UHGV virus genome: UHGV-0180966
Length of the DNA stretch: 36,655 nt
Source of the DNA: a virus
Direction: 5' to 3' (one strand)
In this document: piece after piece, positions 1 through 6,000 of the stretch
How positions within the stretch are numbered: position 1 is the stretch's first letter
Layout: every line of letters begins with the position of its first letter
Program-made: the position numbers

Positions 1-3000
1 GGCCCAAGGAAATAACGCTGATTTAATACTTCGACTCGGGACAAATTAAGGCATACCCGCATTCCTTCGCGGTCGCCATTATGGCGATACCAGAGAGCTT
101 TCTGTGTGTACATGCGTCTCTGTAACTTGCTCTCCTTCACTGTGGTTGCAAGTGACATGAATATCTCCTTCGTTACCGATTAATTCTTTCATCTGACGAA
201 TGAATTCTTCGTCTGACCAGTTATCCGTAAAACTCATGGACGGCCTTGTTGTTTCAAAATATCCCAAAGCTTTTCGAGCAAACTTTTCATTCTTGGTTGT
301 TTAAAGTCTGCTCCGGTTAAAATATTTTTTCGTGAATGCTGCACCGATAAAATTGGGTTGAAAGGGCGAACCGATGCCGCCCCTGCAATAGCGAACTGTT
401 GCATAGGATGCTCCTTCTGTTTGATTGCATAACGAAAACGCCTCGAGTGAAGCGTTATTGGTATGCGGTAAAGCCGCCAACAGGCGGCTATTTGCCATTG
501 ATTCTTTTCAAGAACATCAATGATGTCGTACGGGTTGTCTCCGTTGTCTTCACAAAATGCTTCGAATTCAGCCCATTTCGCGCTGATAAAATCAATTACT
601 CTCATTAATTCGTATTCCATATTTTTCTCCAGACCAAAAGAATGCCGCCCATATAGAGCGGCAAGACTATCAAGGAATGATTTCCAATAATCAGAACAAG
701 TCGGCTCCTGTTTAGTTACGAGCGACATTGCTCCGTGTATTCACTCGTTGGAATGAATACACAGTGCTTATTCGCGAGCTTTGAGCATTGCGTCTGCAAA
801 CTTATATGCAGCGCTTGCTGCATAATTAACAGCTCCATCAGAATCATTATCGATAATCGATGGATTGCTAATCATTGCTTGCATAGCCTTTGCTGCGAAG
901 TAATCACGTAATGTCGCATCACTTGCCATTTCTGGGCGTTTGATATCTGCTTCATAAAACTCGCACATCACTCACCTCCAAGAGCATTTGCAGCCTGTTT
1001 TGCTTTGTGAATCCATAGCAGAGCCATGTAGTACACAGCCTTTTCGTCGGCTCCTGTGATATCTTGCTCTGCCATCCATTTTGTAAATTCAACTGCGTTC
1101 ATATTCACCTCTGTTGTTTATGCCAAAAATAAAGGCCGACTATGCGGCCATCACTTAATTTCCTTCCATCCCAAATCAAGCGTTTCAAATGCTACATCAC
1201 GCATGTTTTCGTCTTTTTCGTCCCGATCCATTTCATCCCACTCATTCTCGGATAAGCCAAGATTATCGAGTGTTACAACTGTCTTTTTGCAAGAATGAAT
1301 GTTTGCGCCGGAATCCAACCAAATTTCAAATTTACGTTCCATATCTCACCTCAAATAAGTGGTTTGCTGCCTAATTTCATTTTCTGGCGACCAACACAAG
1401 TCACACCCATTTCACTGCGTGGCTTGCGGTAGTAAATTCGGTTATTTATGTAATAAAAAAACCTCCTTAGCGGGTTATATGTGTTTCCACTTCTTGCGAA
1501 GCCTAATTGAACTAATGTACGAATCAGACAAGCCATAGATGGCTGATATTTTCCTGTTGCTCAGCGTGGAGCTTCGTATTTCAAGAACATCTTCTGCGGT
1601 AAGTTTCGCGGAACCGTTTCTCTCTCCAGAGACGTGATTTCCTCTCCCTTTAATTTCCATATCCCTTACGTTTTCCAACTGAGTACCAAGCACCAAATGC
1701 TCTGGGTTGATGCATCGCGGGTTATCACACATATGCAGCACTACACGCCCTTTAATGCTCTCAAAAGAGACACCGGCTGATTCGCAGTAGGCTTTCCTGT
1801 GAAGCCTTATCGCAACTGTCTTACCGTTGACTCGAGTTGAAGTGGTACCGTAATTTTGTTTTTGGCTATGCTCTATGCAATCACTTAACATGTTGATCTC
1901 TCTAAAAAGAAAACATCAGGTTAAGCAATCCCTCATATTGGAACCGTCCATTGGCTCGCCATGGGGCCGACGCATGGTTTAAAGACGCGCCGTTCGTCTA
2001 TGTGCTTATGATGTACTCAAAGTTCATTAATGTAAAGTACCAATAGTACTTTTTATGGATATAAAAAGCTCACTACATCATAAGTTATTGAACTTTAAGG
2101 AAATTTATTTTTATCCGAATCGCTTGTAATCGATTGACTGCCTAATGAGGACTTTGGCTAGAATGTGAAGTTGCTCTTCTTCACCTTCTTCTATGTACCA
2201 TCGATCATAAGCGGCATTGTCAGAGATGACGGCAAGCCTGTTCTTTTGCATTTGCAGGCGCTTAACGTGCATTGTTTTCCCGTATACAAACACATAAATG
2301 CCATCGCCATCAAAACAGGTTATGGATACATCAACAAAGATCTCATCTCCCGGATTGATGGTTCCCTCCATGCTGTCACCGCGAACCGTGATGACTTTTA
2401 CGCTTTCCTGTGGCCTTCCTACCATGCAAAGGTAACCCCGCTTTATCACAGGCCAGCGCAAGCCTCTGCGAGAAAGTTTCACGCTCTTTCTGTTGAGCCA
2501 TAAGTTCAACTATATTAGGTATTGACAGTATTATCAGTTCTGTCATAATGTGAACTATAAGTTCACCACAGGAGAGAAGCATGAACGAAGTTACGTTTGG
2601 AGAAGTTATCAAATCCGTTCGGGTTTCTGTTGTGGCTGATGCTTGTGGACTTACGCCAAAAGCCATCTATAAGTGGCTTGAGCGTGGTTCTCTGCCGCGT
2701 ACCGAGTTCACTGGTGAAACCGAATATGCGGATAAGATCGCCAAGGCATCAGGCGGCAAGTACTCAGCAGCACAGATTCGCCGTATCTGTAAACAGCGGT
2801 TTGTTATGTAATAAAAATGCACTTTTAGTACCGAACGGCCCGGTATACGGTCGGGTGCCCGGCGTGGTCAAGGATGACTGTCAATGGTGCACGATAAAAA
2901 CCCAAATTATTTACCTATGGAGATAGTAAGAAATGACACAAGCAAGCTAAAGCAAGCCAACACAGCGAGAAATTGATCGCGCTGAAACTGATTTACTCAT

Positions 3001-6000
3001 CAACCTGTCAACGCTTACCCAGCGCGGTCTGGCAAAGATGATTGGCTGTCATGAATCGAAGATAAGCAGAACGGACTGGAGATTTATTGCTTCGGTCTTG
3101 TGTGCTTTCGGAATGGCATCAGACATCAGTCCGATTAGCAGGGCTTTTAAGTATGCGCTTGATGAAATCACCAATAAAAAACGCCCGGTGTGCAAGACCG
3201 AGCGTTCTGAACAAATCCAGATGGATTTTTAACAACATCCAACGAGGTAATTATATGCGAAAAACGCAGGAAAATAAACGCGTTAATCACCGAAAAGATG
3301 TGCTACGTGACCAGTTTTATCAGGGGGTTAATCCAGCAATAGTTGTGCCACTGAGAGAAATACTTAACAGGTACAAAACTTCGGAGAAGTCAAAATGAGC
3401 ATGAATCTTATGGTTAAGGCCATGAATATAAAGGTTGGCAACCCACTGAGAAAACTGGTTCTGATTAAACTTGCCGATAACGCCAATGATAATGGCGAAT
3501 GCTGGCCTTCATATCAACATGTCGCTGACCAGTGTGAGGTGAGCAGATCGACAGTAAAAAGTCACATTAGGGCACTGGAAGAGATGGGGCTTTTGAAAAG
3601 GGAATTCAGAAGAAAAGGAGAGCTTAACCAGTCAAACGTTTTTTATCTGACGCTGGATAATGCACAACAAATCCAACCAGAATCAGGTGGGGCAGGAGCT
3701 GCCCTAGGGGGTGGGGCAGGAGCTGCCCCCAGAACCTATCACTCTTTTGAACCAGTCAATGAACCTAAAAACATTATGTTCGAACATGTCCGAACAGAGT
3801 GTGAAAAAACTCCTGACCGTCACGAAGAAACCGACAAGGCATTCGAGGAAATATTCTGGTGTGCAGGCATGCGGAAAGCCGGGAAGAAAAACGCAGCTTC
3901 AGCATTCAGAACACAGTTCAGGGAATGGCGTAAAACTACCAGGGGGACGGCAAGCGAGTTTGCCACGATGCTGGCAGAAGACATTGCGTGCAGGCTCGGT
4001 AAGCAGTTCGGGTTCGACAGGTTGTTACCATCGAGCTACCTGAACGGTCAACGCTGGAACGACGAGAAGCCAGAAACTATTCAACCACAATCCAAACCAT
4101 CATCCGCAATCACCGTATCGAAAACTGGCTACGTGTTTTTCGACAGGTGAACCATGAAATCAAAAATCAAATCGCTACTGGTCGCTGGTTATAACCACGG
4201 CTGGTTAAGTATTTCGTTTGTCGATTTCTGGTTTAAAAATCTCAATCTGAGGGAATCATGAGGCCAAGTGAACTCAGCGACCTGCTTTGGGCGCAGGTTG
4301 ACAGGGTGGCTCCGCACCTGTTGCCAAACGGCAAGAAAGATGGGCATGAGTGGGTTGCCGGTAACGTCAACGGTGACAAGGGAAACAGCCTTAAGGTCAA
4401 CCTTAGTGGCAAGAAAAAATGGGCTGATTTCGCTGAGGGAGACGGCGGCGACATGCTTGATTTGTGGATGGCATGTCGTGGAATTAACCTGCATCAGGCT
4501 ATGCAGGAAGCGAAAGCCTTTCTCGGAATCAAGGATGACGATCACCATTTCGATGCCAAACGTGAGAAAAAATTCTCCAGACCTGATCGCAAGAAAATCG
4601 CCCGCTACGTTACCAGAACAGAATCCCATCTTGAGTACCTGCAATCGCGTGGCATATCGCCAGAAGTCGTAAAGCGCTACGAGGTTGTCAGCGGCAAGGT
4701 GTGGAATGGAGAACGAGAACTTGATGCACTGGTGCTTCCGTACAAACGCGATGGTGAGTTGTTGCAGGTCAAGCGAATCAGCACTGAGCGCCCGGACGGG
4801 AAGAAAGTCATTATGGCAGAAGGTGATTGCGAACCTTGTCTGTTCGGATGGCAGGCTCTGGACGCTGGCGTGAGGGCGGTTGTACTTTGCGAAGGCGAAA
4901 TTGATTGTATGAGCTATGCGCAATACGGCATCTCGGCGTTATCCGTGCCGTTTGGTGGCGGGAAAGGTGCTAAGCAACAGTGGATTGAGTTTGAGTATCA
5001 CAACCTCGACAGGTTTGAGGAAATATTCATCTCGATGGACGTTGATGATGTTGGTCGTGAAGCCGCAAGGGAAATCGCAAGCCGACTCGGTGAACATCGT
5101 TGCCGTCTTGTTACTCTGCCGTACAAAGACATCAACGAATGCCTGATGAACGGTGTTACCGAGGATGAAATCTGGCAGTACATCGGCACGGCATCATACT
5201 TCGACCCTGAAGAACTCTACAGCGCACGAGAGTTTTACCAGGACACTATCAACGCTTTCTACGGCAAGCAGCAGTATCTGTTTAATCCACCGTGGGAATC
5301 TCTGGCAGATAAATTCCAGTTCCGTGAGGCCGAGTTGACGCTGGTCAATGGTGTGAACGGTCACGGAAAAGCCTGTCCACTTGATGAACCAATTCTGCTC
5401 GCTAATGGTGAATGGACTACTCACGGGGATGTAAAAATTGGCGATCAGGTGGCGTCAGTTGACGGCAATCCGTCAACTGTCACCGGGATATTCCCGCAGG
5501 GTGTTAGAGATGTTTACCGAGTCACATTTGAAGATGGTCGTTATGTTGATTGCGCAGGCGATCACCTATGGGAGGTCACTAGTCGTGGATTCACGAAAGG
5601 CGAGAAGCGCCGCGTGATAGACACCTTCGAGCTGAAACGGTTGAGTGAAACGAAGAGGCACAAAAATGGCGTTAGGATTCCTGAAATAACTGGTGACTTT
5701 GGCGACCACTCAGAGCCATTAGCATGGGTTATCGGCTCCCTTCTCGGGGATGGTAGTCTTAGCAATGGGAGCGTGAAGTTTTCAAACGTCGAGCCATACA
5801 TGATCGAGCGTATGAAGGCTGAACTGCCTGATTACAACTTCTCTGGAGATGGTAAGGACTGGCTGATATCAACGGCGCGTGGTCAGGTAAATCCACTCAT
5901 GGAGACCCTGCGAGGTTATGGACTAATGGGGTGCACAGCAAAAAACAAATTCATCCCTCGTGTGTTTTTTTCTGCAAATAAATCAACGCGTATAGGCATG

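What the first reader, a model, noticed from the sequence alone, without database searches (positions are those of the whole stretch)
2933..3232. cII homolog carries an in-frame TAA at codon 6
The reading frame with a clear lambda CII-like C-terminus is opened by ATG 2933 with a good RBS, but codon 6 is TAA (2948-2950), within a short repeat AGCAAGCTAAAGCAAGCC. Only an internal Met at 3038 gives an uninterrupted ORF that would lack the N-terminal third. Together with the anomalous repressor this suggests impaired lysogeny control.
Basis: seen in the sequence. Interest (0 to 1): 0.5.

Follow-up and report, generated by a model that had tools for sequence, protein, structure and literature searches.

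The report
Nonsense-mutated cII in lysogeny-defective phage
A single C-to-A change turns codon 6 of this phage's cII lysogeny-activator gene into a stop codon, and because the repressor gene beside it is also broken and no integrase was found, this is an ordinary case of a temperate phage that can probably no longer lysogenise.

Summary
ATG 2933 opens a phage HK022-type cII gene, and codon 6 (2948-2950) is TAA. Every relative examined has Tyr (TAC/TAT) there: six named phages and prophages and at least 120 IMG/VR contigs. The TAA allele was found in no public collection apart from four assemblies of this same phage, at roughly 1000-2000x coverage, so an assembler artefact is unlikely. The nearest intact allele differs at only 3 of 300 bases, so the inactivation is recent. 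No alternative start has a usable ribosome-binding site. The only clean ORF (Met36, 3038) lacks the first 35 residues.

The "short repeat" is the CII operator TTGC-N6-TTGC of the repressor-establishment promoter pE, read on the opposite strand. The mutated base is also position 2 of pE's -35 hexamer (TGTAGC to TTTAGC).

The neighbouring cI repressor carries a 317-bp frameshifting internal deletion. No integrase or excisionase homologue lies between the tailspike gene and abc2.

The best reading is a P22-like phage with an HK022 immunity region that has become obligately lytic. The biology is classical (clear-plaque type lesions), so novelty and interest are low.

The parts
2933..3232 (+). cII gene of HK022 type, inactivated (Tyr6 to ochre). 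The conceptual product is 99 aa.
   Evidence: It is 3 nt from the nearest intact allele (L110) over 300 nt.
2948..2950 (+). Premature TAA stop. Relatives have TAC or TAT. The mutated base is 2950 (C to A).
2919..2922 (+). Shine-Dalgarno GGAG serving ATG 2933.
   Evidence: -6.4 kcal/mol; the best of all in-frame candidate starts.
2942..2955 (-). CII operator oE: TTGC-TTTAGC-TTGC. The boxes are at 2952-2955 and 2942-2945. The pE -35 hexamer is 2946-2951 and contains the mutated base.
   Evidence: Feature table of HK022 record X16093 mapped onto the window, sequence, pattern hit.
2923..2928 (-). pE -10 hexamer TACTAT, 13 nt downstream of the promoter-proximal TTGC box.
3038..3232 (+). Residual uninterrupted ORF from Met36 (64 aa). 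It lacks the N-terminal 35 residues and has no convincing RBS.
3178..3208 (-). oop-like antisense terminator hairpin inside the 3' end of cII. The natural 3-bp 'PVCKT' length variant lies in its loop.
2836..2892 (+). putR antiterminator RNA site, 57/57 identical to HK022/O276.
2581..2811 (+). cro, HK022 type (98.3% nt identity).
2522..2549 (+). pR (TTGACA-16-CATAAT).
   Evidence: O276 annotation.
2111..2501 (-). cI repressor remnant. cI nt 85-401 (317 nt) are deleted, with the junction at window 2418/2417 in a GG microhomology inside the imperfect repeat GGCAGGC/GGAAGGC. The 3' 309 nt are 100% identical to HK022 cI.
13523..13555 (-). paQ-like CII-dependent promoter antisense within the Q gene: TTGC-GTGGCT-TTGC, 13 nt, TAGGAT.
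   Evidence: The Q gene is at 13212-13748.

Best explanation
The window is a metagenome-assembled genome of a P22-like podophage carrying the immunity region of lambdoid phage HK022 (pR, cro, putR, cII, cI). A single C-to-A transversion at 2950 changed Tyr6 (TAC) of cII to an ochre stop. Translation from the only good start (ATG 2933) therefore ends after five residues, and no functional CII is made.

CII is the unstable activator that switches on the repressor-establishment promoter pE, and in lambda also pI and paQ, so it is needed for efficient lysogenisation. Here its target gene cI is itself destroyed by a 317-nt frameshifting deletion, and no int or xis was found. The phage is therefore predicted to be an obligately lytic, clear-plaque type descendant of a temperate phage.

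The repeat around the stop is CII's own operator (TTGC-N6-TTGC) on the opposite strand. The mutated base is position 2 of the pE -35 hexamer between the two boxes, so one substitution hits both the activator and its promoter.

Shown here: the lesions, their derived and private nature, their reproducibility between assemblies, and the promoter/operator overlap. Inferred: the loss of lysogeny, and that putR-modified RNA polymerase spares the downstream replication genes from polarity.
For: Identity of the gene:
- The region has 98.1% DNA identity to HK022/O276 cro-putR-cII, with those annotations.
- Pfam Phage_CII matches over the full length when codon 6 is restored.
- Lambda CII structures 1XWR/1ZPQ are hit at E=5.8e-7.

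Derived, private stop:
- TAC is present in six named relatives.
- At least 120 IMG/VR contigs carry TAY, and 112 of 114 evaluable ones give a 98-99-aa ORF.
- The TAA allele has 0 matches in IMG/VR, in GTDB species genomes and in JGI metagenomes.

Not an assembler artefact:
- The window is ERZ1034905 NODE_344, cov 2167.
- Contigs ERZ19693148 k119_38800 (multi 1031), ERZ27289123 k119_123551 and Logan SRR7658643_50319 are identical over window 1900-3450, including both the TAA and the cI deletion.

Recent event:
- The nearest intact allele differs at 3 of 300 nt.

No rescue:
- No tRNA gene is present in the window.
- No alternative start has an SD.

Context:
- cI carries a 317-nt out-of-frame deletion.
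- tblastn with int, xis, erf, ssb and nun queries finds nothing.
- The long structural and replication ORFs are intact.

Operator and promoter overlap:
- The X16093 features for pE -10, oE and pE -35 map to 2923-2928, 2942-2945/2952-2955 and 2946-2951.
- HK75 annotates pE across the cII start.
- In lambda, cy42 is a silent change in cII codon 4 'within pE' (PMC5869508).
- TTGCN6TTGC sites at PRE and PaQ are described for P22-like phages (PMC2629481).
Against: - No phenotype is available. Loss of lysogeny is inferred from sequence only.
- The four assemblies may derive from the same or overlapping read sets (sample metadata not found), so they exclude an assembler artefact but not a systematic read error or a minority wild-type allele.
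- The contig is not closed. Both SPAdes and MEGAHIT contigs break between abc2 and the gp42-like gene, so a few kb are unassembled. In principle these could hold genes not seen here, although int/xis is not expected at that position in P22-like genomes.
- Only one integrase type (phage Huey's) was used as the tblastn query.
Confidence: 0.85

Rival explanations
1. The TAA is a sequencing or assembly error, and the real phage has TAC (an intact cII).
For: It is a single-base difference, and the window is a metagenome contig. The four assemblies could share reads, since sample metadata could not be found.
Against: Contigs in SPAdes, MEGAHIT (two) and Logan naming formats all give A at 2950, with stated coverages of about 2167x and 1031x. 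No homopolymer or other error-prone context surrounds the base. The adjacent cI gene carries an independent, reproducible lesion, which makes a genuine loss of the lysogeny module more coherent than a random error landing in cII.
Confidence: 0.04
2. A functional, N-terminally shortened CII is still made, from Met36 (3038) or from a non-canonical start just after the stop (for example ATT 2972) by reinitiation.
For: The frame stays open from 2951 to 3232 and is nearly identical to intact alleles. The Met36 ORF still matches Phage_CII positions 32-91.
Against: There is no ATG, GTG or TTG in frame between 2951 and 3038. The near-cognate candidates and Met36 have anti-SD duplexes of -2.7 kcal/mol or weaker, against -6.4 for ATG 2933. 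All 112 full-length alleles keep the N-terminus, and the Pfam profile starts at residue 1. By alignment to lambda CII, Met36 corresponds to about residue 32. From my memory of the 1XWR/1ZS4 structures, that is inside the first helix of the helix-turn-helix, so helix 1 and part of the DNA-binding motif would be missing.
Confidence: 0.03
3. The stop is read through, either by programmed recoding or by an ochre-suppressing host or phage tRNA, so full-length CII is made.
For: TAC to TAA is exactly the change that a tyrosine-inserting ochre suppressor would correct (general knowledge).
Against: No tRNA gene is present in the window. The stop is not conserved in any relative: 0 TAA against at least 120 TAY in IMG/VR. 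No recoding signal is evident. Natural E. coli rarely carry ochre suppressors (general knowledge).
Confidence: 0.02
4. The substitution was selected mainly for its effect on the opposite strand. It changes the pE -35 hexamer from TGTAGC to TTTAGC, one step closer to the TTGACA consensus, and so alters CII-independent antisense transcription across cro. The cII knock-out would then be a by-product.
For: The base lies in the annotated pE -35 hexamer. The change raises the consensus match from 2/6 to 3/6 (sequence). In lambda, -35-region cy mutations inside cII codons have strong phenotypes (PMC5869508).
Against: pE's normal product, cI, is already destroyed. The promoter still falls below the generic sigma-70 scan threshold in both the mutant and the wild type. 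Position 2 of the hexamer is constrained to G or A in intact genes simply by the Tyr codon, so there is no independent evidence of selection on the promoter.
Confidence: 0.05

Closest known systems
cII of coliphage HK022 (U02466 / AAB60270; X16093 immunity region, with annotated pE and oE)
   Same: The gene order is the same (pR-cro-putR-cII), with 98% nucleotide identity over cro-putR and the first ~250 nt of cII. The start codon and RBS are the same. The TTGC-N6-TTGC/T operator lies inside codons 4-8, and pE -10 is at the same spacing.
   Different: Codon 6 is TAA instead of TAC. The C-terminal 20 residues are of the lambda/P22 type (…KKRPVCKTERSEQIQMDF) rather than the HK022 type (…KKSPAATEDFKQIDMQF). 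That natural mosaic variant is also seen in E. coli LWY24. The phage backbone is P22-like rather than HK022 siphovirus.
Classical lambda cII-null and cy (pRE/pE) clear-plaque mutants, such as cy42 in cII codon 4 and cy3001 in the -35 region
   Same: The lesion falls in the stretch where the 5' codons of cII and the -35/operator region of the establishment promoter are encoded on opposite strands. The expected consequence is failure to establish repressor synthesis (PMC5869508).
   Different: Here the change is a nonsense codon found in an environmental genome rather than a selected laboratory mutant. It co-occurs with a deleted cI and no detectable int, so its own phenotype would be masked.
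Salmonella P22-like phage epsilon34 c99, a sequenced clear-plaque mutant
   Same: It is a P22-like phage whose sequenced genome carries lesions in both cI (gp46) and cII (gp48). TTGCN6TTGC sites are described at PRE and PaQ (PMC2629481).
   Different: c99 was made by hydroxylamine mutagenesis and carries missense changes. The window carries a nonsense codon and a 317-nt deletion, and comes from a metagenome.

Membership tests
Lambda CII family of lysogeny-establishment activators (Pfam PF05269 Phage_CII) | Sequence match to the family profile over its whole length | tested here: met
   With codon 6 read as Tyr: 120.2 bits (cut-off 21.3), profile positions 1-91/91. Lambda CII structures 1XWR/1ZPQ/8IGR are hit at E=5.8e-7.
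Lambda CII family of lysogeny-establishment activators (Pfam PF05269 Phage_CII) | Position in the early-right operon, between cro and the replication genes | tested here: met
   pR is at 2522-2549, cro at 2581-2811, putR at 2836-2892 and cII at 2933-3232. The O-like gene follows at 3395-4150 and the primase/helicase at 4258-7164.
Lambda CII family of lysogeny-establishment activators (Pfam PF05269 Phage_CII) | Cognate TTGC-N6-TTGC operators flanking the -35 of an antisense establishment promoter within the gene's own 5' codons, and at paQ inside Q | tested here: met
   A site lies at 2942-2955(-), with TACTAT 13 nt downstream, coinciding with the annotated HK022 oE/pE. A second site lies at 13542-13555(-) with TAGGAT 13 nt downstream, inside Q. 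The genome-wide count of the motif is not above chance (6 found against 3.1 expected), so it is the positions that carry the argument.
Lambda CII family of lysogeny-establishment activators (Pfam PF05269 Phage_CII) | Uninterrupted reading frame encoding the N-terminal helix and the helix-turn-helix | tested here: not met
   TAA at codon 6. The longest clean ORF starts at codon 36. It is therefore filed as an inactivated copy (pseudogene) of a family member, not as a working member.
Lambda CII family of lysogeny-establishment activators (Pfam PF05269 Phage_CII) | Activation of pE/pI/paQ and rapid FtsH-dependent turnover | not testable with these tools
   This needs reporter and stability assays. 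The conserved C-terminal tail (TERSEQIQMDF) is present in the frame.
Programmed stop-codon readthrough or recoding | The in-frame stop is conserved among relatives, or a dedicated suppressor tRNA is present | tested here: not met
   0 TAA against at least 120 TAY alleles in IMG/VR. 0 TAA in GTDB genomes and JGI metagenomes. No tRNA gene in the window.
Clear-plaque / ex-temperate (obligately lytic) derivative of a temperate lambdoid phage | Inactivating lesions confined to lysogeny genes while lytic genes stay intact | tested here: met
   cII nonsense, cI 317-nt frameshift deletion, no int/xis homologue. The replication, lysis and virion ORFs are long and uninterrupted.
Clear-plaque / ex-temperate (obligately lytic) derivative of a temperate lambdoid phage | Clear plaques and inability to form immune lysogens | not testable with these tools
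   This requires the phage and a host.
HK022-type immunity region (put RNA / Nun system) | HK022-type cI, operators, cro and putR | tested here: met
   cI nt 400-708 match 309/309, cro is 98.3% identical, putR matches 57/57, and the oR region is 93.8% identical.
HK022-type immunity region (put RNA / Nun system) | Intact putL and the nun gene in the left operon | tested here: not met
   Only 26 of 63 nt of putL are retained (1967-1992). There is no nun by tblastn. An HNH endonuclease gene (1475-1891) occupies the position.

The most novel reading that the evidence does not exclude
The TAA may be an adaptive step rather than neutral decay, caught in nature during a temperate-to-virulent transition. 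The phage is cI-deleted, has no detectable int, and reached 1000-2000x coverage in its sample. Knocking out CII would remove CII-dependent braking of lytic growth, namely the paQ antisense transcript against Q (the site is retained at 13542-13555) and CII toxicity. The same base change also retunes the pE -35 hexamer on the other strand.
Probability: 0.2. Interest if true: 0.35.

Novelty: already known. Interest (0 to 1): 0.13.

Why it matters
For annotation, it matters because this cII should be labelled a pseudogene. The pipeline gene calls show no gene at all here in the window's contig, and the 64-aa ORF should not be mistaken for a short CII. The phage should also be scored as lysogeny-defective even though it carries temperate-phage hallmarks.

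Biologically, it is a clean natural example of how few steps turn a temperate P22-like phage into a strictly lytic one: a point nonsense mutation, a microhomology deletion and loss of int. That is relevant to lifestyle prediction from metagenomes and to choosing phages for therapy. It also illustrates the dual coding of the cII 5' end and the pE operator. It does not reveal a new mechanism.

Tried and rejected
1. Frameshift instead of nonsense. The overlapping ORF 2884-2976 in another frame (MEIVRNDTSKLKQANTARN) looked vaguely like a CII N-terminus. Alignment with six relatives shows no indel, only the C-to-A substitution, so this was rejected.

2. Alternative or non-canonical start downstream. 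This was rejected on RBS energies and the conserved N-terminus.

3. Phage-encoded suppressor tRNA. None was found.

4. Other carriers of the TAA allele or of the cI deletion junction. Searches of IMG/VR, GTDB genomes and JGI metagenomes returned nothing. Only exact-protein look-ups found the same phage in three further assemblies.

5. Sample origin. A literature search for the four accession numbers returned nothing.

6. Circular closure. There is no terminal overlap between the contig ends, and the MEGAHIT contigs stop 105 nt inside the SPAdes end. The absence of erf/ssb therefore cannot be claimed as a deletion.

7. Rfam. No family covers put or oop here, and the only hit is sar RNA in the immI region.

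8. Generic sigma-70 scan. It does not call pE in either the mutant or the wild type, as expected for an activator-dependent promoter. It therefore gave no read-out of the -35 change.

9. Whole-window count of TTGCN6TTGC. The count is not significantly above chance, so only the two positionally matched sites are used.
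Full report
**1.

Reading window 2400-3600 and translating 2933-3232 gives MTQAS*SKPTQREIDRAETDLLINLSTLTQRGLAKMIGCHESKISRTDWRFIASVLCAFGMASDISPISRAFKYALDEITNKKRPVCKTERSEQIQMDF*. The ATG is at 2933 and codon 6 is TAA at 2948-2950. The next in-frame ATG is at 3038 (codon 36), and the stop is at 3230-3232. A GGAG Shine-Dalgarno sequence sits at 2919-2922.

**2. What the gene is**

- The stretch 2560-3190 is 98.1% identical to the cro-putR-cII segment of lambdoid phage HK022 and its hybrid O276, with annotations.
- With codon 6 read as Tyr, the 99-aa product matches Pfam Phage_CII over the entire profile (120 bits). The Met36 ORF matches only positions 32-91.
- The solved lambda CII structures are the only PDB hit.
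- The lambda/P22-type C-terminus with one extra residue (PVCKT) is a natural variant, also present in prophage LWY24.

**3. The stop is a derived, private point mutation**

- HK022 (three records), O276, APC_JM3.2, HK75 and E. coli prophages CUVET21 and LWY24 all have TAC at codon 6. The window differs by a single C-to-A change at 2950.
Of 114 evaluable contigs, 112 give a 98-99-aa ORF and none has a premature stop.
- The same pattern with TAA hit nothing in IMG/VR, in one genome per GTDB species, or in JGI metagenomes.
- The nearest intact allele (L110) differs from the window at 3 of 300 positions: 2947, 2950 and 2983. The frame has not decayed further, so the inactivation is recent.

**4. 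It is not an assembler artefact**

- An exact-protein look-up identified the window as ENA metagenome contig ERZ1034905 NODE_344_length_36655_cov_2167.
- Three other contigs are 100% identical to the window over 1900-3450. They are ERZ19693148 k119_38800 (36,272 nt, multiplicity about 1031), ERZ27289123 k119_123551 (16,843 nt) and Logan SRR7658643_50319. All include both the TAA and the cI deletion.
- Over the 6.3 kb compared, the ERZ19693148 contig differs from the window only by a single gap of about 3 nt. Its O-like gene is called at 250 rather than 251 aa.
- I could not establish whether these assemblies rest on independent reads. A per-read check therefore remains the decisive test.

**5. 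No rescue route is visible**

- There is no ATG, GTG or TTG in frame between 2951 and 3038.
- The near-cognate candidates (ATT 2972, ATC 2999, CTG 3005 and 3029) and ATG 3038 have anti-SD duplex energies of -2.7 kcal/mol or weaker, against -6.4 for ATG 2933.
- The window encodes no tRNA.
- Alignment to lambda CII places Met36 at about lambda residue 32. From my memory of the published structures, that is inside the first helix of the helix-turn-helix, so a Met36 product would lack helix 1 and part of the DNA-binding motif.

**6. What the "short repeat" is**

On the opposite strand, 2955-2942 reads TTGC-TTTAGC-TTGC, followed 13 nt later by TACTAT. The feature table of the original HK022 immunity-region record X16093 annotates these elements, which map onto the window as follows:

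| HK022 feature | Window coordinates |
|---|---|
| pE -10 | 2923-2928 |
| oE half-sites | 2942-2945 and 2952-2955 |
| pE -35 | 2946-2951 |

- HK75 likewise annotates pE across the cII start.
- The repeat is therefore the CII operator of the repressor-establishment promoter. Base 2950 is position 2 of its -35 hexamer, which changes from TGTAGC in the closest relatives to TTTAGC.
- This dual coding is classical. In lambda, cy42 is a silent change in cII codon 4 "within pE" (PMC5869508). TTGCN6TTGC sites at PRE and PaQ are described for P22-like phages (PMC2629481).
- A second, positionally matching site lies antisense inside the Q gene: TTGC-GTGGCT-TTGC at 13542-13555, then 13 nt, then TAGGAT. 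This is a paQ analogue.
- The motif count over the whole window is not above chance, so only the positions of these two sites carry weight.

**7. Context: the lysogeny module is wrecked and the lytic genes are not**

- The HK022-type cI gene has lost nt 85-401 (317 nt, not a multiple of 3). The junction is a GG microhomology inside the imperfect repeat GGCAGGC/GGAAGGC, at window 2418/2417.
- What remains is a 41-codon stub (MAQQKERETFSQRLALACDKAGLPLHGRKATGKRKSHHGSR*) and an out-of-frame C-terminal domain whose 309 nt are 100% identical to HK022 cI.
- tblastn with integrase, excisionase, Erf, SSB and Nun queries found nothing. The 1.3 kb between the tailspike gene (33617-35071) and abc2 (36359-36655) holds only small ORFs and an antirepressor-like ORF.
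- By contrast, the ORFs for replication, the nin region, Q, lysis, terminase, portal, coat and the ejection proteins are long and uninterrupted. The primase/helicase is 96-99% identical to its prophage homologue on both sides of an intein.
- Lesions confined to cII and cI, plus the absence of int, fit relaxed or negative selection on lysogeny. They do not fit poor sequence quality.

**8. Mechanism (inferred steps marked)**

- Ribosomes starting at ATG 2933 terminate after five residues, so no CII is made (shown at sequence level).
- Without CII, pE and paQ are not activated (inferred from the lambda and P22 paradigm). Without cI, no immunity can be established or maintained.
- Without int, no integration is possible. 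This rests on absence within the contig. A few kb between abc2 and the left end are unassembled, because both assemblers break there.
- putR is 57/57 identical to HK022. From established knowledge of HK022 put RNA, RNA polymerase leaving pR should therefore be termination-resistant. In that case about 280 nt of untranslated cII mRNA should not cause Rho-dependent polarity on the replication genes (inferred).
- The order of the lesions cannot be determined. Once cI was lost, cII was either neutral or mildly deleterious. CII is toxic when expressed (PMC5869508) and, from general knowledge of lambda, drives an antisense RNA against Q. Its loss could therefore be decay or weak positive selection.

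**9. Comparison with what is known**

- This is a broken copy of a well-known gene in a well-known regulatory layout.
- The closest precedents are laboratory cII and cy clear-plaque mutants of lambda, and the sequenced clear mutant c99 of P22-like phage epsilon34, which carries changes in both cI and cII.
- The only unfamiliar aspect is finding such a genotype at very high coverage in a metagenome.

**10. Verdict**

- Novelty: already known. Interest: low.
- The most novel reading not excluded is that the knock-out was positively selected during a natural temperate-to-virulent transition. I give that about 0.2.

Noticed in passing
window 2111-2501 (- strand), junction 2418/2417: The HK022-type cI repressor has a 317-nt internal out-of-frame deletion between the imperfect repeats GGCAGGC and GGAAGGC. 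The deletion places an ATG (2425-2423) in frame with the S24 peptidase/dimerisation domain, which the metagenome pipelines called as a 104-aa gene.
   Followed up: yes
window 4258-7164 (+), insert = residues 372-713: The primase/helicase (968 aa) carries a 342-aa intein with Hint and LAGLIDADG homing-endonuclease domains. It is inserted in the Walker A motif, between GHGK and T. The intein-less homologue in E. coli CUVET21 is 626 aa. Precise excision implies an unusual Ala as the first intein residue (…GHGK/ACPLDEP…VATHN/TEVV…).
   Followed up: partly
window 1354-1992 (- strand): The left operon is a patchwork: HK022 pL and only the first 26 of 63 nt of putL (1967-1992), then an HNH endonuclease gene (1475-1891) where HK022 has nun, then just the last 31 codons of a lambda-N-like antiterminator (1354-1446). 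Neither putL nor N looks intact, so antitermination of the early-left operon may be lost.
   Followed up: partly
window 35072-36655 and window ends: No int/xis lies between the tailspike gene and abc2. The contig ends exactly at the abc2 start codon (36655) and restarts upstream of a gp42-like gene. The MEGAHIT contigs of the same phage stop at window 106. The erf/ssb region is either missing or simply unassembled.
   Followed up: partly
window 8871-10024, 11261-13044, 15866-16408, 32824-33555, 35803-36501: The density of antirepressor-type genes is unusual: seven ORFs in these five stretches, with Rha, KilAC/ANT, Bro-N and AntA domains. They are scattered through the nin region, after the lysis genes, in immI and next to abc2.
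   Followed up: no
window 32532-33555: A P22-type immI region is present, with Arc (MKGMSKMPQFNLRWPKEV…), sar antisense RNA (Rfam RF00262, 32757-32823, 62 bits) and ant. No mnt-like ORF was seen to its left, where a 218-aa 'amidase' PHROG (31719-32375) and a SieA-like gene (30953-31591) lie instead.
   Followed up: partly
window 3178-3208 (- strand): An oop-like antisense terminator hairpin lies inside the 3' end of cII. The natural 3-bp length polymorphism of CII (PAAT against PVCKT) maps to the loop of this hairpin.
   Followed up: partly
window 234-728 (- strand): A cIII-like sequence (PHROG 550, E=1e-21) forms the last 56 codons of a 164-codon open frame. In the relative vB_EcoP-611R6, two separate small genes are annotated in the corresponding region. 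The cIII-like gene is therefore probably intact, and the long ORF is probably an artefact of upstream open frame.
   Followed up: partly
phage collection hits H41 and H58: Two short P22-like genomes, Klebsiella phage phiKp_30 (33.7 kb) and Escherichia phage EC.P3 (33.4 kb), share 95-97% identity with large parts of the window. They may be further members of a reduced, possibly lysogeny-defective lineage.
   Followed up: no
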